A stretch of 64,000 nt of DNA from a virus: positions 13,566-77,565 of the IMG/VR virus record IMGVR_UViG_3300009506_000016. One strand, written 5' to 3'. The translations under genes were made by a program, and so were the position numbers. The notes beneath the pieces were generated by a model. It saw only the letters and a program-made list of their open reading frames with translations, did not search any database and was not told the DNA's origin. Positions 24,408-57,787 of the stretch are shown here, one piece after another; position 1 is the stretch's first letter, and each line of letters begins with the position of its first letter.

Positions 24408-26027
24408 TTATTTGTATCCGATGAACTCGTTGATCAGTTGCGGTACGTTTCCATCAAACCCGGCCACGTCCAGAGCAAGCGGATCAGAAGTGTCACCAAT
24501 CGTATACCCGGTGGGTGTCATTGACATGGTAACCAGATTGACATCATGTCTTACATGAGATCGATACTGGTTTAGAGCAACAAACGGATGAACCCAACCT
24601 GCCCAAGTTTCACTGTCTGTGATGCAAACAAATGCGTCAAAGTCACGGCCTTGTCTCTTTGCCCAAGAAAAAGCGAGTGATGCGTCTGTTCCACCAAATG
24701 ACATGTGGCTCGTTATCGCCATAGCCTGATCAAGTTTCATTCCGGCGCTGATCCCGAGCGGCCTGATATTATCAGCGAAGCCGATAATCTCGTAGTTTGG
24801 CTCGGAGTTAGCAAGAACAAGTGCCATAGCCGCCGCTCCAAGGTTTGGAGTAAAACCAGCAATGCCATTGATCGATCCGTAGGTCATTGAGCCACTCACA
24901 TCAAGCGCATAGCAGATATTCTTGTGTGTGGCCGGTGCGTTTTTGAATGCAGAGTAGAAAGTGTTCTCACATGCGTAAGAGATATCACGATCAACATTCC
25001 ACCGATTTTGACCACGCGTATCTACGCCAGCGTTATATTGCAATGATGCAATCAAAGCCTTGATAGGATGCAAGCGGTTTTTGTGCAACCACTCAACATC
25101 GTTGAGGCGGCTGATGATCAGATTCTTGGAATCGCGGTCTTTCAGAACACCATAACGAGTCATATTTGCGAGATTGCGGACCATTGCCTCAGCACCCATT
25201 TGGGGTAGTAGAGCGATCCACACGTCACGATCAGTCAGATATTCGGTTGGTACAATCTCTCTCGGTGCATTCGCTGTGCGAATCACATCGATGATACCTT
25301 CCTTATTGCCCCTGGCCGCATAATCTTTCATCACTTCTGCGGCTGTAATGATATCTGGCACAAGAAAAGTATTGTATTCCTTTCCCAATGACCACAACAT
25401 TGCCGCTTGGTGCGCCGGTGATGCAAAGCTAAAATCAACATGCGCAAGACGAATGACATCCTTCTGCGACCATCCCTCACGTTGTTGATATTTAGCCAAC
25501 TGGTAAGCCAGCGAGTTAGGGCTACGATCAAGATACCATTTGGAAACGGCCCGGCGCACAGCCCTTCCCCATCCGCGTTTTGCGTGCAAGAAACTTGCAA
25601 ACGTGAACAGGTGAGTACCAGTACGAACAACCTTCGGCAACGCATTTAGAGCTAGCTTACGTGCGTATGCCATTCCGTTTGTGTAAGACGCGGCAACTGC
25701 AAGAGCAAAAATAGCAGGATCGTTACTTGCGGCGCGTCCATTGTCGCTCACATCAACAATCATATCAATGGTGCGCGTTGGATCTTCATTAAGACATCGA
25801 AGAATGTTGGTGTAATTCTCGAACGTCCGCTTTTTCTCGTTGGCGTAGTAGGTTGGTCCTTCTGTACCAAGGATCAAAAACCGTTCAAGTTGAGTAAACA
25901 TGCCAGCATCAAACACATATCCGCCAGCGTTATTCATAACTTGCTTTTTGCCAGGAACAGGCCGAGATTGAGGAATATTACCAACCTTGTTGCTTGTTCC
26001 AGCATTGATATAGGTTTTTCGTGCCAT
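24408..26027 (-). CDS. rsr: Ro60/TROVE-domain RNA-binding protein (Rsr-like)
   Basis: NNAGGYVF, RFLILGTEG.TYY, RTGTHLF, RGWGR..R, KYQQREGWS..D..RLAH, AMVRNL; vWA MIDAS DVSGSM, GGTD, ITDSETW; GGAGG RBS before ATG at 26027. Confidence 0.95.
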   Translation of the reverse strand: MARKTYINAGTSNKVGNIPQSRPVPGKKQVMNNAGGYVFDAGMFTQLERFLILGTEGPTYYANEKKRTFENYTNILRCLNEDPTRTIDMIVDVSDNGRAASNDPAIFALAVAASYTNGMAYARKLALNALPKVVRTGTHLFTFASFLHAKRGWGRAVRRAVSKWYLDRSPNSLAYQLAKYQQREGWSQKDVIRLAHVDFSFASPAHQAAMLWSLGKEYNTFLVPDIITAAEVMKDYAARGNKEGIIDVIRTANAPREIVPTEYLTDRDVWIALLPQMGAEAMVRNLANMTRYGVLKDRDSKNLIISRLNDVEWLHKNRLHPIKALIASLQYNAGVDTRGQNRWNVDRDISYACENTFYSAFKNAPATHKNICYALDVSGSMTYGSINGIAGFTPNLGAAAMALVLANSEPNYEIIGFADNIRPLGISAGMKLDQAMAITSHMSFGGTDASLAFSWAKRQGRDFDAFVCITDSETWAGWVHPFVALNQYRSHVRHDVNLVTMSMTPTGYTIGDTSDPLALDVAGFDGNVPQLINEFIGYK

Positions 26028-26044
26028 TTCGTACCTCCAACAGA

Positions 26045-26177
26045 AAGTATAGTCGTGCAAAACGGTTGGCGGGATTCGAACCCGCCTTTTGCCATTAACC
26101 GTTATGGAGCGGCTGGTTGCTCAACCGGTACAACCTGTTCTTCTCCATTCGATGTAATAACCGACAAACAATCGTAT
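26045..26177 (-). ncRNA. Y-RNA-like/tRNA-like RNA directly upstream of Ro60
   Basis: Starts at predicted TSS; 5' ACG...GUCGGUUAU resembles array units; contains AACGGUU/AACCGUU stem stacked on GGCGGG-UUCGAAU-CCCGCC T-arm and AUGGAG/CUCCAU stem. Confidence 0.7.
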
Positions 26178-26181
26178 AATA

Positions 26182-26210
26182 ATTATACCATATATTCGAT
26201 CATATTGCAA
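26182..26210 (-). promoter_or_regulatory. Promoter for Y-like RNA and Ro60
   Basis: TTGCAA-17-TATAAT with TG extension. Confidence 0.75.
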
Positions 26211-27610: not shown

Positions 27611-29788
27611 CTAATAATCAACTTTCACATCACGAATTGCGAACGTGAAGTGTTTGTCATCAAGATCAACCTCAGCGCCATCACGGGTGTCAAGATCGGG
27701 GAACCATTGTTTGCACAGCAAGACAGCAAACCGTGTTCTCTGGATCTTATCACGCACATTTCTCAAATCATTCTTCACGCGATTGAGACTCGCCTTTGCA
27801 TATTCCAGGGTCGATAGCGGATCTTTTGAGTTAGGCATATTGTTCTCAAATGATTTTATGACATCGGACATAAGTTGATTGGATGGTGTGAGTTTCTTTC
27901 CGTCAGCCATTTTTGACAACACGTCATCAATCTTTGGAGCGCTGGAATATCCCTTGATCTTTACCTCAAATTCCTTGGCGAAGTAGTGATCGATGCTTTC
28001 TTCCTTGTCTACCGGTGGTGAATATAAGCGATCATGCTTAATCCCGTAGGTTTCAAGGAATTCGATCTGCTCGTTCGTGAATTCGCTCGTGACTTTTTCC
28101 ATGATCCCGGTTGGATCTAATTCCTTGATCTTGTTGTTCAGGAATTTTTGCATGAACGTAAGCTCAAGCTCGTGATCCAGCCACCCACAATATTCGGTAG
28201 ATGTTGGCGCAGTGGCAATCTTCTTGTTCACCAGAGGAACAGCACCTAAGTCAACAAGATAGATTGTATCTTCATCGTGTTCATCATAGTAGTTATCTGG
28301 TAGCATACCAGCATCGACTAACCGATGAAACGTGTCATAACTCATTGACACTGGAAGGGTGGGCGTGTTCAAGATGCTATCTTTGACCAGGGTGTAGTTG
28401 CGATATTGATGACACTGGAAATACTCTCTGAGGCCAACATGCACAGCATCAGGAAGATTAACATGTCCAGGAATTTTTGCAAGGATGGAAAGATTCAGGC
28501 GTTTTTGATTCCATGTCAGATGATTGAATGGACAGGCCGTAGTAGAGTCTGCAAAGAATTTTGGATATCCATCGCGTGTCTTTGTGGGTACGCCGGTGCG
28601 CTTGTAGTTGAACAACTCGTGGCGTGGATAGAAGTATGCTTTGCTATCTGCCATAAGCAAGTCAATAGCATCAAGCAAGCAAAACGCATCATCGGCTGGA
28701 ACAAAATCGGTATCTTGTCCCTCAATGAACCTGAACGCCTCAGAATCAAGTGATAGCAACATGCTGTTTTGCGCATTGCCATATTCCTCATTTGTGAATG
28801 CGTTGTTCACTTCTTTGATCAATGCAACTTCGCCGATAGATCCAAGCATCTCAATAGCAATGTCTGACTTTGCGGAAGAAACAAATGCGTATGCCAGGGC
28901 CACAGGAGCAACGTATGATTGCTCATACGTCATTGACGAAACCGTATCATAATGAGTCAGATCGTGCATGTGATTGATATCAGCAAGGACATAGATGGTG
29001 TTAGCGTTCTCTGGAACGTATGTTACAGCATCCATAGTGTTGAGTATCTCAACAGGATACTGCTGGACGTTGAAGCCATCGTATCCAACTACCATCAGAG
29101 GTTGCATAACTGGAAGTGGTACTGAAACGCGCAACGCCTTCTCAGATCCAACAAATTGCTCCATGCTCGAATCAAACTCGGTAAGGTGGCTGGAATGGAT
29201 AAGAGTCCCGCCGATATTCGCTGTCATCTGAGCCATAAGCTCTTTATTATAGTAGTCACCATAACCAACCAGCATCACAGACGAAACTTTGTCGTTCAGC
29301 GCACGCATGGTATTGAGAATTTTTTGTACTTCCTGTTTGTAGTTACTTACAACCGGATATCCGTCCGTCATAAACATGAGCGATACGGTTCCAGGAAGTG
29401 CGGAAAGATTACCGATGATGTTATCATAGGTATCTGCCAGGATCTCAGAAAAGCATGTGAGGCCTACAACGCTTTTGTATTTCTGTAATGCACTTTTTAC
29501 AGTATTTTGGAATGACGAATTAACGGAAAGGCCGATAAAGATCCAGCCAAACTTCCCGTTTTCAGTTGAAAACCAACCGATTGATAAGGTATCTCCATCG
29601 CGGAGTTGCTTGGAACGCTCAACCATATCATCAACCAATTGAGGCAATGTATAATACATTGATCCAGAACGGTCAAAGATCCAAACGTGATTTGTAGGAT
29701 CAGGAACAGAAGCCTTTTCCTCAGAGCGATCCAATTCGATAGCGAACAAGTTGTACTTATTCTTTACAGGGGCTACAGATACTTTCAT
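27611..29788 (-). CDS. Large vWA-domain protein
   Basis: DRSGSM, GLTCF, FMTDGYP, VGYG.YYN. Confidence 0.8.
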   Translation of the reverse strand: MKVSVAPVKNKYNLFAIELDRSEEKASVPDPTNHVWIFDRSGSMYYTLPQLVDDMVERSKQLRDGDTLSIGWFSTENGKFGWIFIGLSVNSSFQNTVKSALQKYKSVVGLTCFSEILADTYDNIIGNLSALPGTVSLMFMTDGYPVVSNYKQEVQKILNTMRALNDKVSSVMLVGYGDYYNKELMAQMTANIGGTLIHSSHLTEFDSSMEQFVGSEKALRVSVPLPVMQPLMVVGYDGFNVQQYPVEILNTMDAVTYVPENANTIYVLADINHMHDLTHYDTVSSMTYEQSYVAPVALAYAFVSSAKSDIAIEMLGSIGEVALIKEVNNAFTNEEYGNAQNSMLLSLDSEAFRFIEGQDTDFVPADDAFCLLDAIDLLMADSKAYFYPRHELFNYKRTGVPTKTRDGYPKFFADSTTACPFNHLTWNQKRLNLSILAKIPGHVNLPDAVHVGLREYFQCHQYRNYTLVKDSILNTPTLPVSMSYDTFHRLVDAGMLPDNYYDEHDEDTIYLVDLGAVPLVNKKIATAPTSTEYCGWLDHELELTFMQKFLNNKIKELDPTGIMEKVTSEFTNEQIEFLETYGIKHDRLYSPPVDKEESIDHYFAKEFEVKIKGYSSAPKIDDVLSKMADGKKLTPSNQLMSDVIKSFENNMPNSKDPLSTLEYAKASLNRVKNDLRNVRDKIQRTRFAVLLCKQWFPDLDTRDGAEVDLDDKHFTFAIRDVKVDY

Positions 29789-29829
29789 TGTGTGTCCTTT
29801 CGAATCGAATACGAATTAGACTTACAACA

Positions 29830-29900
29830 TGGACCGTAAGAGATTCGAACTCTATCTTCTCGTTGCAACGGAGATGATCTGCCATTTGATCTAACGGCCC
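29830..29900 (-). tRNA. tRNA-Ala(UGC), imperfect
   Basis: GGGCCGU/ACGGUCC acceptor with G3:U70, A73; GAUC/GAUC D-stem; UUCGAAU T-loop; mismatches in anticodon and T stems; no CCA. Confidence 0.75.
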
Positions 29901-29909
29901 ATTTTATCT

Positions 29910-30263
29910 TTATGGAACAGGATAACTAACATCGGGAGCCGGGTACGGCTCTACAGGAGCGGGGTATCCGATATCTTGTGTTGGCCGAACAATTCTTCGT
30001 AGGAATAAAGGAATAGTAGCTTGAAGGTCTTCTTCGTGTTCTCCGCTTTCGTTTTCGTCATCTGTTGAGTTATCGGTTGTGTTAATAGCATTCATTTCAA
30101 TGTTCTTTGGAACACGAGTTGGAGTCGAAAAAGATACTACGGCAGGATCATTGTTATCGATCATATAAGCCTTAGCTCTGTTTTTCATTATACCAAACAT
30201 GATAAAAGCGAGAATGAATGATACAAATAGAATAATTATCGTTTTTTGTTTTAGTGAGGTCAT
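29910..30263 (-). CDS. Membrane-anchored protein with YPAP repeats
   Basis: Signal/TM, acidic linker, GYPAPVEPYPAP..SYPVP; start reassigned to MTSLK. Confidence 0.6.
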   Translation of the reverse strand: MTSLKQKTIIILFVSFILAFIMFGIMKNRAKAYMIDNNDPAVVSFSTPTRVPKNIEMNAINTTDNSTDDENESGEHEEDLQATIPLFLRRIVRPTQDIGYPAPVEPYPAPDVSYPVP

Positions 30264-30285
30264 TGTTGCCAACCTTAAATAAGTG

Positions 30286-30322
30286 GCCCGGTGGGTAAGG
30301 AGGTGAAAAAAACCCACCGGGC
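30286..30322 (-). ncRNA. 11-bp hairpin displaying anti-SD loop (UUUUUUCACCUCCUU)
   Basis: GCCCGGUGGGU/ACCCACCGGGC stem; loop matches the 16S rRNA 3' tail. Confidence 0.55.
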
Positions 30323-30335
30323 GCTCAATATTGAA

Positions 30336-30473
30336 CACGGTAATGTGGTGAGAAACCGGTTTAGCTCTGGCCGGGATTCGAACCCTAGAGCGAACAAGTA
30401 TTACTCGTCCAGCAACCACGCCACTAGCCATCATAGTCTGGTAGATAGATAACAGTCTCTCTTTCGTACCGCG
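30336..30473 (-). ncRNA. Y-RNA-like array unit 6 (insert with T-loop hairpin)
   Basis: CGCGGUA-CG...GAGAGACUG-UUAUC...CGGUUUCUC...UACCGUG scaffold; GGG-UUCGAAU-CCC. Confidence 0.7.
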
Positions 30474-30486
30474 AAAGTCTATTTTC

Positions 30487-30565
30487 ATTCGGTAATAAGT
30501 TGCGCTCGATAAAAAACTTCTGTACTGAAGTTTACCGAAGGTAACCGAAGCGCGGCGTACCGAAT
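30487..30565 (-). ncRNA. Y-RNA-like array unit 5 (short insert)
   Basis: AUUCGGUA-CG..GCGCUUCGGU-UACC...AUCGAGCGC...UACCGAAU. Confidence 0.7.
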
Positions 30566-30585
30566 CTTTATTAGGTTGTTAAAAC

Positions 30586-30661
30586 AAGGTAATAAATTAG
30601 CGCTCGATTTATTAGTTTCGTTTCATATACAAAGTTTGGTTATCGAACACAAGCGTACCTT
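30586..30661 (-). ncRNA. Y-RNA-like array unit 4 (short insert)
   Basis: AAGGUA-CG...GUGUUCGAU-AACC...AUCGAGCGC...UACCUU. Confidence 0.65.
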
Positions 30662-30785
30662 ATTATCTGTCTCGTGGGTGATGCGCCTATCACCCACTTA
30701 TTCCATTCCGCACCGCAACCAACTTGAAGGAGCTTGACCAAGGAGATCCCGGCGGCGCTCACCGGTGAGCCTTGCTAAGTAATAA

Positions 30786-30916
30786 TCTGGTAATGTATTT
30801 GATCACCATGTTTAGCGTCTTAACCACTTAGACCACACGGAGCCTCGGCTCACAGGTTGGGATTCGAACCCAAATATCTCTGCCCAAGTCAGATAACAGT
30901 GATCTTCCGTACCAGA
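30786..30916 (-). ncRNA. Y-RNA-like array unit 3, YrlA-type permuted tRNA mimic
   Basis: UCUGGUA/UACCAGA and GAUCACUGU/AUGGUGAUC scaffold; T-arm UUGGG-UUCGAAU-CCCAA, capped stem, then D-arm GUCU-AAGUGGUUA-AGAC. Confidence 0.8.
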
Positions 30917-30930
30917 AAGATTCAATAATA

Positions 30931-31074
30931 AAGTGGTAATAAAAGTAGGCTGGACATTATTTTTCCTCTGCCATTGAGCTACACACGGATCTTCTTTTTC
31001 CGCATGACGGGATTCGAACCCGCAACCTATTGTTGTTTATACAATTGAGATAACCCAACCAATCCGTACCACTT
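30931..31074 (-). ncRNA. Y-RNA-like array unit 2, YrlA-type permuted tRNA mimic
   Basis: AAGUGGUA/UACCACUU scaffold; T-arm GCGGG-UUCGAAU-CCCGU, loop-closed acceptor CAUGCGGA/UCCGUGUG, D-arm UA-GCUC-AAUGGCA-GAG. Confidence 0.85.
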
Positions 31075-31091
31075 AAGTTTTCAATGTTCTG

Positions 31092-31159
31092 GCGGTATTA
31101 AGATTGCAGTCGATTTAAGAGTCTGTATACTTGTAGATAACCGACTTGCTTCGTACCGC
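31092..31159 (-). ncRNA. Y-RNA-like array unit 1 (short insert)
   Basis: GCGGUA-CGAA-GCAAGUCGGU-UAUC...AUCGACUGC...UACCGC. Confidence 0.7.
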
Positions 31160-31268
31160 ATCATCATAGTCGCTTGTGCCGTTGGGTTTGACTTAAGGAG
31201 GTCCATAGAGTAGCTAGAACTCGGGACAAGCGATGAACCGTTATTTGTTTTTGTTCTAGCATGTATAT

Positions 31269-31297
31269 ATTATACGACTATTCAGAATTATTGTCAA
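31269..31297 (-). promoter_or_regulatory. Consensus promoter driving the ncRNA array
   Basis: TTGACA-17-TATAAT, with no supported ORF for ~1 kb downstream. Confidence 0.85.
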
Positions 31298-31763
31298 TAG
31301 GCAATTTTTCTTGGTCGTTATCTTTCTGAGTAACTGACTTCATTGCTTTCTCATAACGATCTTTTGAGATAAATACAAGCTCGTTCTCAAAAAGAACAGC
31401 GAATTGAGGTCGATAGCCAGTTTTATCGTGATGCCAACGAGCAGACGAATGAATAAAACTGTCATCATCACTCCAATATTTATTAACAAAGCGATCATTG
31501 ATATCATCGCCAGCAATATTGACATAATCTTTATTACTAGCCGCGTAGTAAAGAAAGATATCATCAATCTTTGACGGAAGATCAAATTCATCATCCATAT
31601 TCACGTCAAGAGCTTTGCATAGGCCAGATAATTGTAACTGATACCAGTAAGGAATATATGGATCACGGCGATGCTTGTAGAGCGCCCGGATCAACAACTC
31701 CACTTCCTTTGACGACACTTTCTTTTCGCGTAAAAGCTGAATGGTTGCTCGATACTTTGACAT
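31278..31763 (-). CDS. Hypothetical protein
   Basis: AAGGA RBS before MSKYR. Confidence 0.6.
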   Translation of the reverse strand: MSKYRATIQLLREKKVSSKEVELLIRALYKHRRDPYIPYWYQLQLSGLCKALDVNMDDEFDLPSKIDDIFLYYAASNKDYVNIAGDDINDRFVNKYWSDDDSFIHSSARWHHDKTGYRPQFAVLFENELVFISKDRYEKAMKSVTQKDNDQEKLPIDNNSE

Positions 31764-31765
31764 AG

Positions 31766-32215
31766 CTATTTCCTTGTGAAGAATAGTTTTGAAAACCAAG
31801 AAAGATGAGTGCGTTTCTCATAACATTGTTTGCATACAAAGCGTCCATAGCTGTAATCAAAATCATTTAAAAGGTTTTCAAGCTGTTGTGGGCTATCAAT
31901 GCTAACGCTATCAATATGACCGCAAGAACATGGGTAACTAATAATGATTCCTTGTTTTTCATTCCAACCATGATATGTGAAATAATAATGATACATTCCA
32001 CCATCATTCTCAATAGAATTAACAGTATGCACAAACTGTATAGGATCAGAACCCTTAGTAACACGAATAACATCTGCTAAAGAGCAATCAAGAAAGTAGG
32101 CCAGATGCTTAAGTCGCTCAACGTATCGATAATCGTTTGACTTCTTTTGGTCGTAAACTGATTTATTCCACCATTTCTCAATACTTTGTTTGATTAATTC
32201 ACTCATATCTGGCAT
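31766..32215 (-). CDS. Hypothetical Zn-finger protein
   Basis: CSCGH...CKQC. Confidence 0.6.
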   Translation of the reverse strand: MPDMSELIKQSIEKWWNKSVYDQKKSNDYRYVERLKHLAYFLDCSLADVIRVTKGSDPIQFVHTVNSIENDGGMYHYYFTYHGWNEKQGIIISYPCSCGHIDSVSIDSPQQLENLLNDFDYSYGRFVCKQCYEKRTHLSWFSKLFFTRK

Positions 32216-33042
32216 TACGGTATCTCCCTAACTCTGTAGTGTTCAGGCCATTCTTCCGGGTCTGATCCGCTTGTTGATTTATATCCAAGTTTCTTAGCCA
32301 ATGCACTACCGGATTGTTTCATATAGAATGGAATCCCGTATATTGAGCATTGTAGCCAAGCGTACTTGGCCCATCCCCAATTCATTTCTCGTGCCTGTGG
32401 TCCGCTTTCGCCACCAACAATCACCCAATCTAACTTTGTGATCCAATCTTTGAAATTTATATAGGAAAGTAATGGCTCGGCGCTGATAAAGTTCTTTCCA
32501 GGCCACATTTCCAATAATATAGGTATACGTGCATCGGCGGTGTCTTGGTTTTCTGTAGTGATCCCGAGCCTTATGTGTAAGTTTCCATCAGGATCTTTGA
32601 TCCATCTTTCAGGAAACATGCGCTGTGCATTCTCGATTCGTTTCGTAAGAATCAGAAATTCAATGTATCCACCGGCTATTTCTCCGGCACGATCAAGAGC
32701 ATTCCACAAATCATTGCGCCACTCATCAGGAACTTCATCATCAAACACATCACTGAGTGATGAAACAAATACTCGGTGAAACTGCTTATGATCAAATGCG
32801 CATTTGGCCCATGTGAACACGCTATTATGCGTTCTCTCACTTGTTAATTTACGTGGTGCGCCCTTCCCCCAAGAGCCTTTATCTGTCCATTTGTAGTAAG
32901 TGTTTTGCCTTTCGGCGTAACAAAACTTACATCCGGGACTGATCTTTGTGCATCCAATCCACCAATTAAGTGTTGAACCGGGATGCCAAGATCCATCTTG
33001 CCGCTTTGTAGCGGTCCATCCTATCTTGGTTTCTTTTCCCAT
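32215..33042 (-). CDS. DUF5131 / phage Gp37Gp68-family protein
   Basis: TKIGWT, GCTKISPGCKFCYAE, VFVSSLSD, ILTKR, SAEPLL, WVIVGGESGP, FYMKQ. Confidence 0.9.
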   Translation of the reverse strand: MGKETKIGWTATKRQDGSWHPGSTLNWWIGCTKISPGCKFCYAERQNTYYKWTDKGSWGKGAPRKLTSERTHNSVFTWAKCAFDHKQFHRVFVSSLSDVFDDEVPDEWRNDLWNALDRAGEIAGGYIEFLILTKRIENAQRMFPERWIKDPDGNLHIRLGITTENQDTADARIPILLEMWPGKNFISAEPLLSYINFKDWITKLDWVIVGGESGPQAREMNWGWAKYAWLQCSIYGIPFYMKQSGSALAKKLGYKSTSGSDPEEWPEHYRVREIP

Positions 33043-33091
33043 GCGCCACCTATATTTTATTAGAAACTTCCCTATATAATATTATAACCTA

Positions 33092-33162
33092 AAGGATCAG
33101 ATCGAGTCGAACGATCATTGACGGCTTCAAAGGCCGGTGTCCTACCATTAGACGATGATCCT
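33092..33162 (-). tRNA. tRNA-Gln(UUG)
   Basis: AGGAUCA/UGAUCCU acceptor, D-loop AAUGGU, anticodon loop CUUUGAA, GAUCG-UUCGACU-CGAUC T-arm; no CCA. Confidence 0.85.
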
Positions 33163-33168
33163 TAAATT

Positions 33169-33468
33169 CTAGTATTCGCTTGGTAGCAAAATACAGGTTG
33201 AGCTTCTATCTGCCTCGGTAATAATCCATATCTTTGTATTATCATTGAGCAGATAGGCGGAAAGAATACGTGTTCCGCCGTTGATGGATTTGTTGTTTTC
33301 CTGCTTGTCAAAGGTTGACACAACTCCCCAATCACCAAGGGCATGTTTCATGAGGAATTCTTGTGGGCGCTGTTTTGCCTCATCAAGTGCATATTGAGCG
33401 CCTGTGGTAATCACTATTTGCCCAAGCGCGAACAACGGTTTTCTGGTATTAGGTATCTTTGGTAGCAC
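33169..33468 (-). CDS. Conserved hypothetical protein (F.LGQ.V.T.GA...H..GDWG family)
   Basis: Recognisable plasmid/phage family pattern, IWIITEADRS.T.ILLP.EY. Confidence 0.75.
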   Translation of the reverse strand: MLPKIPNTRKPLFALGQIVITTGAQYALDEAKQRPQEFLMKHALGDWGVVSTFDKQENNKSINGGTRILSAYLLNDNTKIWIITEADRSSTCILLPSEY

Positions 33469-34051
33469 AGTCGCTTACTCCATTATGGTCAGGGTCGCAG
33501 AGCATATTTTCAATGCCATTGACTCCATAAGGATCAGCCATATTGACAGGAACAATGAAGAATGTATCCAGCCGGGTTGCTTGAGCAAGCGCTTTTGTGA
33601 TCCCGGCCTTTACAGCGGTATTAATCGCCGCCGCGTCAACAATGGCCCATCCTTTGTTTTGTAAAAATGACACAAGATTGCTTACATCTTCGATGTCACC
33701 AAGCTGGCCGCGATTGAAACCGGCCATTGCTTTCAATTCCTCTATAGAAGTTATGGTTGTGAGTTTAGCGGAGTCCCAAGCATAGAACGCAACCCCTCTT
33801 TCTCCAATAGGCCACACAATCAAAAACTTCGTGCTTGATGGATCTACAATAATTGTGGACCACCATGCACCGCCCAAAGCACTCCGAACAAGGGCCATAG
33901 TCTGAAACTTTCCAATCTGGATCAATTCACCAGGAGATACAGCGTACTCAAGACCTGGAGCTTGCATTGCCGCAGAGCAACCGTATGATAAAATGACGGA
34001 TAGCAACAGAGCAACACGAAACACATGTGACATTACTTTATTCAATTTCAT
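33449..34051 (-). CDS. Putative lipoprotein
   Basis: Hydrophobic signal ending LSYGC (lipobox-like). Confidence 0.55.
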   Translation of the reverse strand: MKLNKVMSHVFRVALLLSVILSYGCSAAMQAPGLEYAVSPGELIQIGKFQTMALVRSALGGAWWSTIIVDPSSTKFLIVWPIGERGVAFYAWDSAKLTTITSIEELKAMAGFNRGQLGDIEDVSNLVSFLQNKGWAIVDAAAINTAVKAGITKALAQATRLDTFFIVPVNMADPYGVNGIENMLCDPDHNGVSDCATKDT

Positions 34052-34769: not shown

Positions 34770-36140
34770 TCAGGATGCTTCTTCAACGTCAACTGCGTTT
34801 GGATCTTCCTTGACAATACCCTCAAGAACCTGGAACGCATAGTTCTTCGCTTTGTAAGCACGAATTCCACTCGTGTTTTCTACGCGAATCACCACACCTT
34901 CCATCAAGTGACGTTTATCAAGAGTTGAACATCTATTGTCCAGAAACTTTTCGAGAATAACATTCAGAACACTGCTAACGTATGATTGTTCTTCATTTAC
35001 ATGAATATAAATCATTCTTAGAACAGGAACATGTTTCAGAAATAGCTCAGAGCATCGTTTCATAGTTTGCAACCACGATAACTCTGTCTCAATTCCATCC
35101 TCGTTTTGCACAGTGATGCGATACACGTAAAAGTCAAATGCTGGATTCATGCCACCATTATCATTCACGGTATTGCATCCGTATGAGTAAACCATTGGCC
35201 TACTGCCAATAACATCAAAAGGAAACTTAACAAACTTGTCACGTATTTCCTTTTGTAAATCTTTATCCTTGATTTTATCAATAGATTGAGAATTCATAAT
35301 CGGAGATCCGAACGTATCGAACCCGACTATCTCGTAGTATATGGTTTCCCCTTTGCGAAGTCTCCCGATCATTGACTTGTGAATTTGCCAGCGATAATGT
35401 TCCCTTCCAAGTCCAGTGATATCTTCACGGTTGTTGCATATCGTGTTTCGAGTACCGGTCACATATTCATACTTTTCTGTGACCACCGGTGCAATAACCT
35501 CACGCTTCAATACACGGTTTACCAAACTCGCAATCATTCCAAAGCGTTCATGCTGTGCTTTGACGAATCCTGTTCGTCCGCTTGTTCCATGAAGTTTCTC
35601 TGTAATGATGAAGAAAGATCCTGGTGGGATCGTGTCCATATAATACCGGATCTGCTCGGTATCGTAGTGCTTGTTGAGCATGTAATGATCCCTAACCTTT
35701 ACGGGTTTGTCGGATCTCGATTGGGCTTTGCGGGTGGCCTCTGTCACATATTTTGTACATATTGGATTTCCGTTTAGCTCGTTGAACGTAAGTCCTTGTA
35801 CAAGTTCTTTTGTACTACCGGTCCATTCGAACGCTGATATCTTAACGGCAAACCCTTCTGACTTCACGCCCCTGAACGGCTGGACCCTAACTCTCCTGGT
35901 ATCCTCAAAGAAACCAGTAACGGTTGTGTCTGCATTCTTGGTAGCATCCCTATAAAGATTGTTGTAGTGGCAAAACTCATGGGATAGCTGACCATCAGGC
36001 GGAAAGATAACAACAAGATCTCCGATATGGTAATCCTTACTAACAATGAAGTTTGCACCGTTGTATGGCAGAATCATAAGTCGATCAGCATTTGGGTGAT
36101 CGAGCAATTGATGAACGGATATGACGTGTGCGTTATACAT
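34770..36140 (-). CDS. ATP-dependent RNA ligase (DRB0094/Rnl2-like with N-terminal OB domain)
   Basis: HPNADRL N-domain; motif I TEKLHGTS; YYEIVG; FDFYVY; HVPVL; EGVVIR; YKAK. Confidence 0.85.
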   Translation of the reverse strand: MYNAHVISVHQLLDHPNADRLMILPYNGANFIVSKDYHIGDLVVIFPPDGQLSHEFCHYNNLYRDATKNADTTVTGFFEDTRRVRVQPFRGVKSEGFAVKISAFEWTGSTKELVQGLTFNELNGNPICTKYVTEATRKAQSRSDKPVKVRDHYMLNKHYDTEQIRYYMDTIPPGSFFIITEKLHGTSGRTGFVKAQHERFGMIASLVNRVLKREVIAPVVTEKYEYVTGTRNTICNNREDITGLGREHYRWQIHKSMIGRLRKGETIYYEIVGFDTFGSPIMNSQSIDKIKDKDLQKEIRDKFVKFPFDVIGSRPMVYSYGCNTVNDNGGMNPAFDFYVYRITVQNEDGIETELSWLQTMKRCSELFLKHVPVLRMIYIHVNEEQSYVSSVLNVILEKFLDNRCSTLDKRHLMEGVVIRVENTSGIRAYKAKNYAFQVLEGIVKEDPNAVDVEEAS

Positions 36141-36570
36141 CCTCGTTATCTCCTTTTTCTCCAACAGTACCAAGATCAACGGTTTGTCCTGGGGGTGCAT
36201 ACTCAACTCCGTAGTCCTCAAGAAGTTGTTGAGCATCATGGAATTCATTTAGAGTAGTTGTAAACGCAACTTTGAATGCCACCATCATTTCCTCAAGGCT
36301 CGTTTGTTGATGGACGCATTGGCTTGCGAGATACATGATCAATGGTCCGCCGCGTGCTAGTAGATCGGCCCACACCATCTCTCGCTCTACAGTGTCATCG
36401 AATACGAATTCGAGAAGTATTGTTTGGTCAAGAAATTCAACCGACCAAACTCGCTGAGGTTCCCCGTTAGAATCAATCCTGTCACTTCGGGTGACAATTC
36501 CTTCGCCCTCAGTGACAGGAAGATTACTAACTATTCTCTCAGCTAATTTTAAACTAGCTGGATCAATCAT
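36133..36570 (-). CDS. Hypothetical protein
   Basis: ORF coupled to neighbours. Confidence 0.6.
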   Translation of the reverse strand: MIDPASLKLAERIVSNLPVTEGEGIVTRSDRIDSNGEPQRVWSVEFLDQTILLEFVFDDTVEREMVWADLLARGGPLIMYLASQCVHQQTSLEEMMVAFKVAFTTTLNEFHDAQQLLEDYGVEYAPPGQTVDLGTVGEKGDNEDV

Positions 36571-55535: not shown

Positions 55536-56084
55536 TCAATCGAATGGGAACAATGGGACGGCCACAATCTTGCCGTTCCAGGTATCGACCCATGTTTCAA
55601 GGTGTACATCAAACCGTACATACTCGTTTGATGTCTGTTTCGAGAACTCATCCAGGAATTTCTTATCATCTTCCGACAGCGGGTACATGAGTTCAACCGT
55701 AGCCTTGTAGTCCCGGTTATCGATGTACTCAAGCAGTACGCACTTGCTGTAGGTATGGGAACTTGACTCGCGGATAGATCCGCACACGCATTCGCATGAC
55801 TTAGTGATCGTGAGCTTATTGCCATTGAAGTCATGAGATTCGCTGTAGATGTGAGTGGTGATGGTATCGCACTTGCCACAGTGAACAAAACGCGGTGAGA
55901 CAAAATGAGATTCCTTGTAGTCCCGGCTGGCGAACGTATAAGTCGCCAGAGCCTCACCGCACTCATCACAGTGGATGGCCCGGTACTTGGTTATATGGTT
56001 TTCGCAAGTAATCTGAAACTGTGTTGAGCTTGTTTTCACCGGGCGCAAGCACTTAATACACGTCATCTTATTTTTCTTAGCCAT
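55536..56084 (-). CDS. Multi-CxxC zinc-finger protein (probable paralog of 54908-55444)
   Basis: CIKC, CDEC, CGKC, CVC; shared PLS.DD. Confidence 0.7.
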   Translation of the reverse strand: MAKKNKMTCIKCLRPVKTSSTQFQITCENHITKYRAIHCDECGEALATYTFASRDYKESHFVSPRFVHCGKCDTITTHIYSESHDFNGNKLTITKSCECVCGSIRESSSHTYSKCVLLEYIDNRDYKATVELMYPLSEDDKKFLDEFSKQTSNEYVRFDVHLETWVDTWNGKIVAVPLFPFD

Positions 56085-57180: not shown

Positions 57181-57787
57181 ATATCGGACTCACACCGACA
57201 CCATCCGGGGGAAGATCCCCCGGCATTGACGAGTTATACTGCTCGTTACAGTTTAATCAGGATAGAGCATGATCCAGCACATGCCATCTTGATAGCACTC
57301 GTAGAACACGAGTCCGCTGTTGATTGAGTGAATAGTATTATACATACCCCAAAAGTCATCTTGGTACACCCATGTCCAGGTTCCTATTCGCTCGTACAGG
57401 TATGTTTCGCCAGTCCATCTATTGCACTCGTAGAGTATCGTGTCTCCGTTGAGCATCATATCAACGCCCATATACGGATCAACCCTGCTGATGATAAGAT
57501 CATCATCAAGTTCTGGATCATAGTCCACGAACTCGGTATACCGATTGTCGCCGACTATTATGACATTTGACTCGTTCGAGTTGCGCATGACAGCGGGCAT
57601 ATACACTGTATACTCGGGTGAAGCCGCCCAAGCGTCAATGATTCCCCAAATGCACAGCGCACCAAGCGCGATACATACTGCAATGATCAAGTTTTTCACA
57701 ATGACCTCCTAAGTCTGGTTGGTTTGTATGCCGGACTCACACCGGCTCCGCCAAGAATGGCATAGACGAGTTATACCGCTCGTTACG
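57181..57787 (-). repeat. Dispersed leader motif family B (57181-57251, 57727-57787)
   Basis: GUAACGAGC(A/G)GUAUAACUCGUC...CGG-UGUGAGU-CCG, each upstream of an RBS. Confidence 0.75.
57253..57699 (-). CDS. Secreted protein with VYMPAVMR motif
   Basis: AGGAGG RBS plus GTG; signal peptide. Confidence 0.7.
   Translation of the reverse strand: MKNLIIAVCIALGALCIWGIIDAWAASPEYTVYMPAVMRNSNESNVIIVGDNRYTEFVDYDPELDDDLIISRVDPYMGVDMMLNGDTILYECNRWTGETYLYERIGTWTWVYQDDFWGMYNTIHSINSGLVFYECYQDGMCWIMLYPD

What the first reader, a model, noticed from the sequence alone, without database searches (positions are those of the whole stretch)
30286..31262. Anti-Shine-Dalgarno sequences displayed in the non-Y segments of the array transcript
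Seen on the transcribed (-) strand: UCACCUCCUUA, the canonical 16S 3' tail, in and closing the loop of an 11-bp hairpin at the 3' end of the array (30286-30322). ACCUCCUUA occurs in the 5' leader (31194-31202), and two more CUCCUU lie in the spacer near 30727-30746. On the + strand the two long ones are perfect SD sites with no suitably spaced start codon or ORF. Inference: small RNAs mimicking the 16S 3' end that could occlude host RBSs, sponge SD-binding factors, or present mRNAs to Ro60 complexes.
Basis: partly seen in the sequence, partly recalled or inferred. Interest (0 to 1): 0.72.

Follow-up and report, generated by a model that had tools for sequence, protein, structure and literature searches.

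The report
Anti-Shine-Dalgarno hairpin in phage Y-RNA array
An uncultured marine-sediment phage that carries a Ro60 gene and six Y-like small RNAs also encodes, in the same transcript, a stable hairpin whose open loop copies the ribosome's mRNA-docking sequence; two distant relatives keep that loop while changing the stem, so it is a real RNA module that probably masks ribosome-binding sites, though nothing has been tested.

Summary
All four motifs are at the stated places on the minus (transcribed) strand. They are far from chance. ACCTCCTTA occurs twice in 64 kb, both times in the 1-kb array. Across the whole 77.5-kb contig, every CCTCCTT that is not the complement of a gene's ribosome-binding site lies in the array.

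Only the 3' hairpin (30322-30286) clearly displays its motif: 11 bp stem, 15-nt loop U6-CA-CCUCCUU, z -5.6, P(unpaired) 0.92. The leader copy is moderately open. One spacer copy is paired.

The two closest syntenic relatives have the same kind of hairpin in their Y arrays, on the Y-sense strand. Their neighbouring 725-aa protein is 51% and 48% identical. Their stems are unrelated but fully Watson-Crick, and the loop core (U-run, 2-3 nt, CCUCCUU) is kept. The hairpin sits at the 5' end, inside, or at the 3' end of the array, so it is an independent module and not a terminator. There is no plus-strand start codon, ORF or promoter.

My best reading (about 0.45) is a phage RNA that occludes ribosome-binding sites, working like the alpha-r14/Cuckoo/NfeR1 sRNAs without belonging to that family. 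The rivals are a protein-binding 16S-tail mimic and a processing or stability element.

This scan has noted anti-SD-loop RNAs in other phages, but not with Ro60/Y RNAs.

The parts
31269..31297 (-). Promoter of the array: TTGACA, 17 nt, TATAAT (12 of 12 consensus). Transcription probably starts near 31262.
   Evidence: The syntenic relative L019 has TTGACA-17-TATACT in the same position.
31160..31262 (-). 5' leader of about 100 nt, ahead of Y module 1.
   Evidence: Its fold is not better than shuffles (z -0.35).
31194..31202 (-). Leader anti-SD copy ACCUCCUUA, partly accessible.
   Evidence: Its flanks add complementarity to the phage translation-initiation regions (TIRs) of the genes starting at 57699 and 55444. 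The duplex energies are -21.7 and -19.8 kcal/mol, and only 11 of 500 flank shuffles reach the best value.
30333..31157 (-). Six Y-RNA-like modules. Each has a GGUACG 5' strand, a UUACC 3' strand and a GUUAUC motif, and three have tRNA-like T arms. Approximate positions: Y1 31157-31088, Y2 31070-30925, Y3 30919-30784, Y4 30663-30585, Y5 30565-30488, Y6 30475-30333.
   Evidence: Y2 gives a sub-threshold YrlA match (21.9 bits). The ends of Y6 come from the closed 143-nt contig in run X2.
30664..30783 (-). A 120-nt non-Y spacer between Y3 and Y4 that holds two CUCCUU copies (30745-30740 and 30732-30727).
   Evidence: The first copy is paired (P unpaired 0.001) and the second is in a small loop (0.13). 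This part of the finding is weak.
30286..30322 (-). The anti-SD hairpin. Stem GCCCGGUGGGU / ACCCACCGGGC (11 bp). Loop UUUUUUCACCUCCUU at 30311-30297. The 16S-tail-like UCACCUCCUUA lies at 30306-30296.
   Evidence: Equivalent hairpins are at L018 1-36 and L019 1170-1209.
29910..30263 (-). The next gene downstream, encoding a 117-aa predicted membrane protein of no known family. Its weak ribosome-binding site UAAGG starts 10 nt after the hairpin.
24408..26060 (-). Context only: the Ro60/Rsr gene (TROVE plus Ro60 vWA domains), with its own Y-like, T-arm-bearing leader at about 26060-26200.
27611..29788 (-). Context only: the 725-aa protein (phrog_2426, no Pfam hit) that I used to find the relatives.

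Best explanation
The hairpin at 30322-30286 is a separate, conserved RNA module of the phage's promoter-driven Y-RNA array. The leader copy at 31202-31194 may belong with it, with less certainty. The hairpin has a GC-rich stem of 9-11 bp that can take any sequence. The stem holds open a pyrimidine loop of 15-18 nt with the form U-run, 2-3 nt, CCUCCUU. This loop is identical to the core of the 16S rRNA 3' tail and is the reverse complement of a consensus translation-initiation region (AAGGAGG followed by an A-rich spacer).

Most likely mechanism (inferred, not shown): after the array transcript is made and cut up, the loop base-pairs with Shine-Dalgarno regions of mRNAs and blocks 30S binding. 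This is how the anti-SD loops of alpha-r14/NfeR1/Cuckoo sRNAs work. The leader copy may be tuned to a group of the phage's own genes whose sites read CUUA(A)GGAGG.

What is shown: the sequence, the fold, the accessibility of the loop, its conservation with compensatory stems, the strand and the transcription-unit context. What is inferred: that the RNA accumulates, that it pairs with ribosome-binding sites, and which mRNAs it affects.
For: (1) The motif is specific to the array.

(2) The hairpin is stable and its loop is open: z -5.6 and P(unpaired) 0.92 in the window. The L019 hairpin has z -3.8 and P 0.79, and the L018 hairpin has z -4.6.

(3) Conservation. The only two close syntenic relatives found both carry the hairpin in their Y arrays, on the Y-sense strand. 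These are L018 and L019, whose 725-aa protein is 51% and 48% identical; L019 also shares DUF5131 and Ro60. All 31 stem pairs are Watson-Crick. At 8 of the 11 positions, counted from the loop-closing pair, the pair identity differs between members. CCUCCUU is invariant in all 5 copies: the window hairpin and leader, the L018 hairpin, and the L019 hairpin and Y3.

(4) Specificity. There was no further hairpin of this kind in the other 111 Ro60 or 725-aa-protein loci of the 113 scanned (1.19 Mb in all). Of 148 motif sites in 120 unrelated phage loci, only 1 had a stem of 8 bp or more, and that one is the complement of a real ribosome-binding site.

(5) The position in the array varies: after the promoter in L019, followed by two more Y modules in L018, and after the last module in the window. 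It therefore behaves as a module.

(6) The phage's genes use AAGGA/AAGGAG/AAGGAGG sites, so the loop is complementary to what the host ribosome reads.

(7) Precedent. The CCUCCUCCC loops of NfeR1 silence mRNAs by occluding the ribosome-binding site, as shown by reporter assays with loop mutants (PMC10746234). The Cuckoo family is defined by variable stems with a constant anti-SD loop, and its CcsR members are cut out of a longer co-transcript (PMC4615179, PMC8034643).

(8) The flanks of the leader copy extend the pairing to two phage TIRs better than 98% of flank shuffles.
Against: There is no transcript evidence for the hairpin, and no target is shown. The family has only three members, all from metagenomes with unknown hosts. 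All stem pairs are Watson-Crick, so the stems alone cannot tell which strand folds. The strand rests on the promoter, on the constant orientation relative to the Y modules, and on the lack of plus-strand coding.

The U-run of the loop adds nothing to pairing with any TIR in the window: 488 of 500 flank shuffles do as well. Its conservation therefore needs another reason, such as a protein contact, loop geometry or a host target.

The phage's own mRNAs would be hit as well as the host's. Anti-SD motifs are not enriched in the Y arrays of more distant Ro60 phages, so this is a clade feature and not a general property of Y arrays.
Confidence: 0.45

Rival explanations
1. Protein-binding mimic or tether. 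The pyrimidine loop is read by a protein rather than by an mRNA. Candidates are an S1- or KH-domain protein such as PNPase or ribosomal protein S1, Hfq, a factor or nuclease that recognises the 16S 3' tail, or the phage's own Ro60 or 725-aa protein. The hairpin would then be a decoy or sponge, or a Y-RNA-like tether for an effector.
For: [quoted passage not shown] Phage Ro60 and its Yrl RNAs assemble with host PNPase (PMC12135203). In L019 a second UUUCACCUCCUU lies in the variable domain of a Y module, the place where effector-binding loops sit. The conserved U-run is not explained by pairing with phage TIRs.
Against: The CCUCCUU core is exactly invariant in five copies, across lineages whose shared proteins are only 43-51% identical. 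It is also identical to the anti-SD core. A constant nucleic-acid partner explains this more simply than a generic pyrimidine-binding domain would. The hairpin has none of the Ro60-binding stem features (GGUACG / UUACC or UUGACC strands, GUUAUC).
Confidence: 0.2
2. Processing or stability element. The hairpin is a structural punctuation mark of the polycistronic array. It could be an exonuclease block or a landmark for the nucleases that release the Y modules, and the resemblance of its loop to the anti-SD would be secondary.
For: The hairpin always sits 11-14 nt from the end of a Y module. A closed 143-nt contig in run X2 puts the Y6 3' end at 30333, 11 nt before the hairpin, so cutting does occur next to it. 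The stem is GC-rich and perfect.
Against: A mere block or landmark needs no invariant 7-nt loop core, and the other five module junctions of the window manage without such a hairpin. There is only one hairpin per array, and its position in the array changes.
Confidence: 0.13
3. Intrinsic terminator of the array (window only).
For: It is the last structure before the next gene, and it is followed by CACUUAUUU.
Against: The scan does not call it a terminator: the loop is 15 nt and there is no U-tract directly after the stem. In L018 and L019 the equivalent hairpin is followed by A-rich sequence and by further Y modules, where termination would be self-defeating.
Confidence: 0.04
4. Plus-strand reading. 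The sites are real ribosome-binding sites, or GGA-loop protein-binding hairpins of the CsrB type, on an antisense RNA.
For: TAAGGAGGT followed by an A-rich run looks like an ideal ribosome-binding site. All stem pairs are Watson-Crick, so the hairpin would fold on either strand.
Against: There is no start codon at a usable distance, and no conserved ORF in the window, L018 or L019. No plus-strand promoter faces the array. All neighbouring genes and all Y modules are on the other strand, and the orientation relative to the Y modules is the same in all three loci.
Confidence: 0.04

Closest known systems
alpha-r14 / Cuckoo sRNAs of Alphaproteobacteria (NfeR1, CcsR1-4 = RSs0680a-d; Rfam ar14)
   Same: They are hairpins whose stems vary freely while the loop keeps an anti-SD motif. 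CcsR RNAs are cut from a longer co-transcript. NfeR1 loops silence mRNAs by pairing at the ribosome-binding site (PMC4615179, PMC8034643, PMC10746234).
   Different: The motif is CCUCCUU behind a U-run, not CCUCCUCCC. There is one hairpin per locus instead of 2-4 adjacent ones. It is phage-borne and embedded in a Ro60/Y-RNA array. No Rfam family matched it. It works like them at best; it is not a member.
3' tail of 16S rRNA (anti-Shine-Dalgarno, ...GAUCACCUCCUUA in E. coli; from general knowledge)
   Same: It shares 11 of 11 nt (UCACCUCCUUA) in the window hairpin. The L019 loop carries the extended CCUCCUUUCU form known from Firmicutes.
   Different: It is not part of an rRNA gene: no SSU match was found in the window. 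The motif sits in a closed hairpin loop, not at a free 3' end, and helix 45 does not precede it.
Bacterial and phage Y RNAs (YrlA, YrlB, Yrn2; phiLo Yrl1/2)
   Same: The hairpin is encoded with Ro60 and co-transcribed with Y modules. YrlB-type RNAs are hairpins with small pyrimidine-rich loops (PMC4201824, PMC12135203).
   Different: The hairpin lacks the Ro60-binding terminal helix motifs that all six neighbouring modules share, and it has no tRNA-like domain.
Phage P1/P7 c4 antisense RNA (from general knowledge)
   Same: It is a small structured RNA processed out of the same operon transcript, and its loops pair with a ribosome-binding region to block translation.
   Different: c4 has a specific target downstream in the same operon. 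No specific cis target is evident here. There is no sequence relation.
Anti-SD-loop RNAs noted earlier by this scan in other uncultured phages (UCUCCU / CUCUCCU loops in tRNA clusters; AI notes, unchecked)
   Same: They are phage-borne hairpins with variable stems and constant anti-SD loops, and they lie close to tRNA genes.
   Different: Their motif is different. They form multi-hairpin RNAs of about 240 nt, and no link to Ro60 or Y RNAs was noted for them.

Membership tests
alpha-r14 / Cuckoo sRNA family | 2 to 4 adjacent hairpins | tested here: not met
   Each locus has one hairpin. The other copies are not in comparable hairpins.
alpha-r14 / Cuckoo sRNA family | Each loop carries CCUCCUCCC | tested here: not met
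   The loops carry CCUCCUU(A/U) preceded by a U-run.
alpha-r14 / Cuckoo sRNA family | Stems vary while the loops stay constant | tested here: met
   The three stems are unrelated in sequence and all 31 pairs are Watson-Crick. The loop core is invariant.
alpha-r14 / Cuckoo sRNA family | Match to the Rfam covariance model | tested here: not met
   No such match at E up to 10 in window 29500-33500, nor at E up to 1 in L018 and L019.
alpha-r14 / Cuckoo sRNA family | Represses translation by pairing with the SD | not testable with these tools
   This needs reporter or toeprint assays.
Y RNA (YrlA/YrlB type) | A terminal helix made by the 5' and 3' ends, with the conserved Ro60-binding strands (here GGUACG... 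/ ...UUACC plus GUUAUC) | tested here: not met
   The hairpin has none of these motifs, while all six neighbouring modules have them.
Y RNA (YrlA/YrlB type) | Encoded next to Ro60/rsr | tested here: met
   Ro60 is at 24408-26060 on the same strand, 4.2 kb downstream. L019 keeps the same synteny.
Y RNA (YrlA/YrlB type) | Bound by Ro60 | not testable with these tools
   This needs EMSA or co-immunoprecipitation.
Intrinsic (Rho-independent) terminator | GC-rich stem, short loop, and a U-tract directly 3' of the stem | tested here: not met
   The scan does not call it one. The loop is 15-18 nt, and the 3' flank is CACUUAUUU in the window and A-rich in L018 and L019.
Ribosome-binding site of a plus-strand gene | A start codon 5-10 nt behind the SD, followed by an ORF | tested here: not met
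   The reverse complements of the L018 and L019 hairpins also lack one.
16S rRNA gene 3' end | Lies at the end of an SSU rRNA gene | tested here: not met
   Rfam finds only two tRNAs in the 64-kb window.

The most novel reading that the evidence does not exclude
The anti-SD hairpin is the targeting or decoy arm of a phage Ro60 ribonucleoprotein system. The array would supply Y RNAs that load Ro60 and an exonuclease (at least one Y RNA possibly circularised by the phage's RNA ligase). The 16S-tail mimic would either bring SD-led mRNAs to that machinery or soak up a host factor or nuclease that acts on the ribosome's anti-SD tail. That would be a new way for a phage to take over or protect translation initiation.
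Probability: 0.1. Interest if true: 0.85.

Novelty: new variant of a known kind. Interest (0 to 1): 0.6.

Why it matters
Y RNAs and Ro60 are conserved from bacteria to humans, yet what phage Ro60 systems do is open. The only published proposal is hijacking of host PNPase (PMC12135203). A conserved module in the same transcript that copies the ribosome's mRNA-docking sequence gives the first sequence-level hint that such a system touches translation initiation.

It is also directly testable. The array has a consensus sigma-70 promoter and could be expressed as it is. As far as the searched literature shows, RNAs with anti-SD loops are experimentally established mainly in Alphaproteobacteria. 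Finding the same design in a phage, next to similar unchecked notes from other phages in this scan, suggests that masking ribosome-binding sites with 16S-tail mimics is a recurrent phage strategy.

Tried and rejected
1. Close relatives through the 161-aa upstream protein: none in viral contigs.

2. blastn of the array against GenBank phages: no match.

3. Ro60-based loci (L002-L017, 35-41% identity). Several have Y arrays, but anti-SD motifs are not enriched in them. The CCUCC sites in L013, L014 and L017 are in high-GC contexts, and I do not count them as members.

4. Pattern scans of viral contigs. The strict pattern found nothing.

5. The 725-aa protein in viral and genome collections: only relatives of 41% identity or less, none with the hairpin.

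7. MAFFT could not put the three stems in register, so pair counts were made by script anchored on the loop. No covariance model was built.

8. A full-length complement of the loop among the window's genes: none. The best has 2 mismatches and is not at a start codon.

9. Sequencing runs. No listed holder is on record as RNA. Runs X2 and X3 hold only Y6 and the Y4 region, and neither covers the hairpin or the leader. This says nothing either way about expression of the hairpin.

10. The Rfam hits to mir-490 (on the hairpin), sR55 and tmRNA are sub-threshold chance matches.

11. PHROGs and Pfam gave no function for the genes whose TIRs best match the leader copy.
Full report
**Setting.** The window is 64 kb of a 77.5-kb IMG/VR virus contig. 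A near-identical copy sits in a marine-sediment metagenome run. From about 16 to 45 kb all genes are on the minus strand. They include:
- Ro60/Rsr (24408-26060; TROVE plus Ro60 vWA domains);
- a 725-aa protein of no Pfam family (27611-29788; phrog_2426);
- tRNA-Ala (29829-29901) and tRNA-Gln (33091-33163);
- DUF5131 (32215-33042);
- an RNA ligase (34770-36248).

Between a 161-aa gene and a 117-aa gene lies a roughly 1-kb untranslated stretch behind a perfect TTGACA-17-TATAAT promoter (31297-31269). It holds six Y-RNA-like modules with GGUACG 5' strands, UUACC 3' strands and GUUAUC motifs. Three of them have tRNA-like T arms, and Y2 gives a sub-threshold YrlA match. The finding concerns what lies between and around these modules.

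The 3' hairpin runs from 30322 to 30286 on the minus strand. Its 11 pairs are all Watson-Crick, and its 15-nt loop reads U6-CA-CCUCCUU. UCACCUCCUUA spans 30306-30296, and its last A closes the loop. The hairpin folds at -24.6 kcal/mol, with z -5.6 against 200 dinucleotide shuffles.

ACCUCCUUA recurs at 31202-31194 in the leader. Two CUCCUU sit at 30745-30740 and 30732-30727 in the 120-nt spacer between Y3 and Y4.

This is not chance.
- ACCTCCTTA is expected 0.25 times in the window on both strands. It occurs twice, both times in this 1 kb and on this strand.
- In transcript sense, CUCCUU occurs six times in 64 kb, four of them here.
- In the whole contig, six of the eight CCTCCTT are complements of AAGGAGG ribosome-binding sites, and the other two are the array copies.

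'Displayed' is only partly true. In the full transcript, the probability that the motif is unpaired is 0.92 for the hairpin (99th percentile). For the leader copy it is 0.08 (7-mer) to 0.52 (6-mer). For the two spacer copies it is 0.001 and 0.13. The leader and spacer do not fold better than shuffles.

**Strand.** On the plus strand the two long copies read TAAGGAGGT. Nothing usable follows them: no ATG, GTG or TTG at 4-15 nt, apart from a GTG that overlaps the SD itself, and no ORF. No plus-strand promoter faces the array.

**Relatives.**
- The array has no DNA match in GenBank phages.
- The upstream protein has no relatives in IMG/VR.
- The 725-aa protein has hundreds of homologues, but the nearest are only 51%, 48% and 46% identical.
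I therefore fetched loci with an alignment of the six nearest proteins.
- The two nearest loci are informative. L019 (48%) is syntenic: DUF5131, then a promoter (TTGACA-17-TATACT), then a Y array with a tRNA inside it, then the 725-aa gene, then Ro60.
- L018 (51%) is a short contig that begins inside its array and continues with two Y modules, a small ORF, a tRNA and the 725-aa gene.

Both relatives carry the same kind of hairpin on the Y-sense strand.
- L018, positions 1-36: 9-bp stem GCCAUCCGG / CCGGAUGGC, loop G-U5-CG-CCUCCUU-UUA.
- L019, positions 1170-1209: 11-bp stem UGCCGCUUGGG / CCCAAGCGGCA, loop U5-AUG-CCUCCUU-UCU.
- Both are strongly stable (z -4.6 and -3.8).

Counted from the loop-closing pair, all 31 stem pairs in the three hairpins are Watson-Crick. 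At 8 of 11 positions the pair differs between members. The loop keeps the U-run, a 2-3 nt link ending in a purine, and CCUCCUU.

L019 has a second copy, UUUCACCUCCUU, which shares 12 nt with the window loop. It lies in the loop of a 7-bp helix that includes a U-G pair, inside the variable domain of its third Y module. CCUCCUU is thus invariant in five copies, across lineages whose shared proteins are 43-51% identical.

**Specificity.**
- A script looked for a U-run plus CCUCCUU flanked by a stem of 8 bp or more. In 113 Ro60 or 725-aa-protein loci (1.19 Mb) it found six motif sites, and only the L018 and L019 sites had a stem.
- In 120 unrelated phage loci that were selected for containing the motif, 1 of 148 sites had a stem. 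That site is the complement of a real ribosome-binding site with its ATG.
- More distant Ro60 phages with Y arrays show no enrichment of anti-SD motifs. The element therefore belongs to this clade and not to Y arrays in general.
- Further scans found no more members.

**What it is not.**
- It is not a terminator. The scan does not call it one. The loop is too large and no U-tract abuts the stem. In L018 and L019 it is followed by A-rich sequence and more Y modules.
- It is not a Y RNA, because it lacks the strands and motifs shared by all six neighbouring modules.
- It is not any Rfam family.
- Its position in the array changes: 5' in L019, internal in L018 and 3' in the window. It behaves as one more module of the array.

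**How it most likely works.** The loop is the reverse complement of a textbook initiation region, AAGGAGG followed by an A-rich spacer. The phage's own genes use AAGGA, AAGGAG or AAGGAGG sites, so the host ribosome has a canonical anti-SD.

The best-documented RNAs of this design are the alpha-r14/Cuckoo sRNAs. They have variable stems and a constant CCUCCUCCC loop (PMC4615179). The CcsR members are cut from a longer co-transcript by RNase E (PMC8034643). In NfeR1 the loops silence mRNAs by occluding the ribosome-binding site, as shown with loop mutants (PMC10746234).

I therefore favour an RNA that occludes ribosome-binding sites, at about 0.45. Two observations qualify this.
- First, the flanks of the leader copy extend pairing to the initiation regions of the genes starting at 57699 (13 pairs with one bulge, -21.7 kcal/mol) and 55444 (-19.8 kcal/mol). 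Only 11 of 500 flank shuffles do as well. These genes, together with those starting at 56084 and 56607, share CUUA(A)GGAG sites, and all are of unknown function.
- Second, the U-run of the hairpin loop adds nothing to pairing with any initiation region in the window: 488 of 500 shuffles match it. Its conservation needs another cause, such as a host target, a protein contact or loop geometry. From memory and untested, a U-turn of the YUNR type just 5' of the seed, as in fast-pairing antisense RNAs, would fit UUCA and UUCG.

**Rivals.**
- The main rival (0.2) is a protein-binding mimic or tether. Ro60 systems include hairpin Y RNAs with small pyrimidine-rich loops (PMC4201824). Phage Ro60 and its Yrl RNAs assemble with host PNPase (PMC12135203). 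The second L019 copy sits where Y RNAs carry effector-binding loops.
- A processing or stability role (0.13) fits the constant 11-14 nt distance from a module end. It does not explain the invariant loop, or why the other junctions lack such a hairpin.
- The terminator and plus-strand readings are each about 0.04.

**Novelty.** RNAs with anti-SD loops are known, and phage Ro60/Y RNAs are known. I found no report that joins them. This scan's earlier notes describe anti-SD-loop RNAs in other uncultured phages, with UCUCCU loops in tRNA clusters. Those are unchecked AI notes on other DNA, and none mentions a link to Ro60. I class this element as a new variant of a known kind. It works like a Cuckoo sRNA at best, and it fails that family's membership tests.

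**Side observation.** Run X2 is labelled metatranscriptomic and comes from another study. The tool marks its kind as uncertain. It holds a single 173-nt contig, 100% identical to the window, that maps to 30353-30475 and then jumps back to 30333-30382. For 31-mers this is a closed cycle of 143 nt (143 + 30 = 173). It coincides exactly with Y module 6, whose ends flank its 7-bp terminal stem. The simplest reading is a circular or head-to-tail Y6 RNA, which the phage's RNA ligase could make. This needs bench confirmation and is outside the finding I was given.

Noticed in passing
window 30333-30475 (-): Run X2 has a metatranscriptomic library label and comes from another study than the source; the tool marks its kind as uncertain. 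It holds one 173-nt contig, 100% identical, that maps to 30353-30475 and then goes back to 30333-30382. This is a closed 143-nt cycle that matches Y module 6 exactly, with no cover of the flanks. It suggests a circular or head-to-tail Y6 RNA. The ends (5' UU and 3' UUC around a 7-bp stem) would be sealed into a 5-nt loop. An RNA ligase gene (PF09414) lies at 34770-36248.
   Followed up: partly
window 27611-29788 (-); loci L018-L097, L218-L229, L238-L242: The 725-aa protein between the array and Ro60 has no Pfam hit (phrog_2426, unknown function). It has hundreds of homologues at 33-51% identity in phage contigs and in MAGs of Acidobacteria, Clostridia and Actinomycetes. Its invariant DRSGSM and TDGYP motifs look like a vWA/MIDAS site. 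In the window and in L019 it lies next to Y arrays and Ro60.
   Followed up: partly
window 26060-26210 (-): The Ro60 gene has its own promoter-like site and a leader of about 150 nt with a GGUUCGAAUCC T-arm (a Y-like leader). Its ribosome-binding site GGAGGUACGAAAUG overlaps a GGUACG motif of the Y 5'-strand type.
   Followed up: no
L019 1623-1694 and L018 431-501; window 29829-29901: In all three relatives a real tRNA gene sits within or just after the Y array and before the 725-aa gene. This is a conserved array-tRNA-gene order.
   Followed up: no
window 55444, 56084, 56607, 57699 (gene starts, - strand): Four consecutive genes of unknown function share an extended ribosome-binding site, CUUA(A)GGAG(G). 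It is complementary over 10-13 nt to the leader anti-SD segment.
   Followed up: partly
window 30552-30697: Run X3 (kind unknown, third study) holds a 151-nt contig with one A>G difference at 30662. It covers the end of the spacer, Y4 and the start of Y5.
   Followed up: no
L005 8370-8400 (+): Just upstream of the Y-array promoter of an unrelated Ro60 phage, AGGAGG and CCUCCU form a perfect 6-bp hairpin that overlaps the -35 region. It is probably unrelated to the element described here.
   Followed up: no
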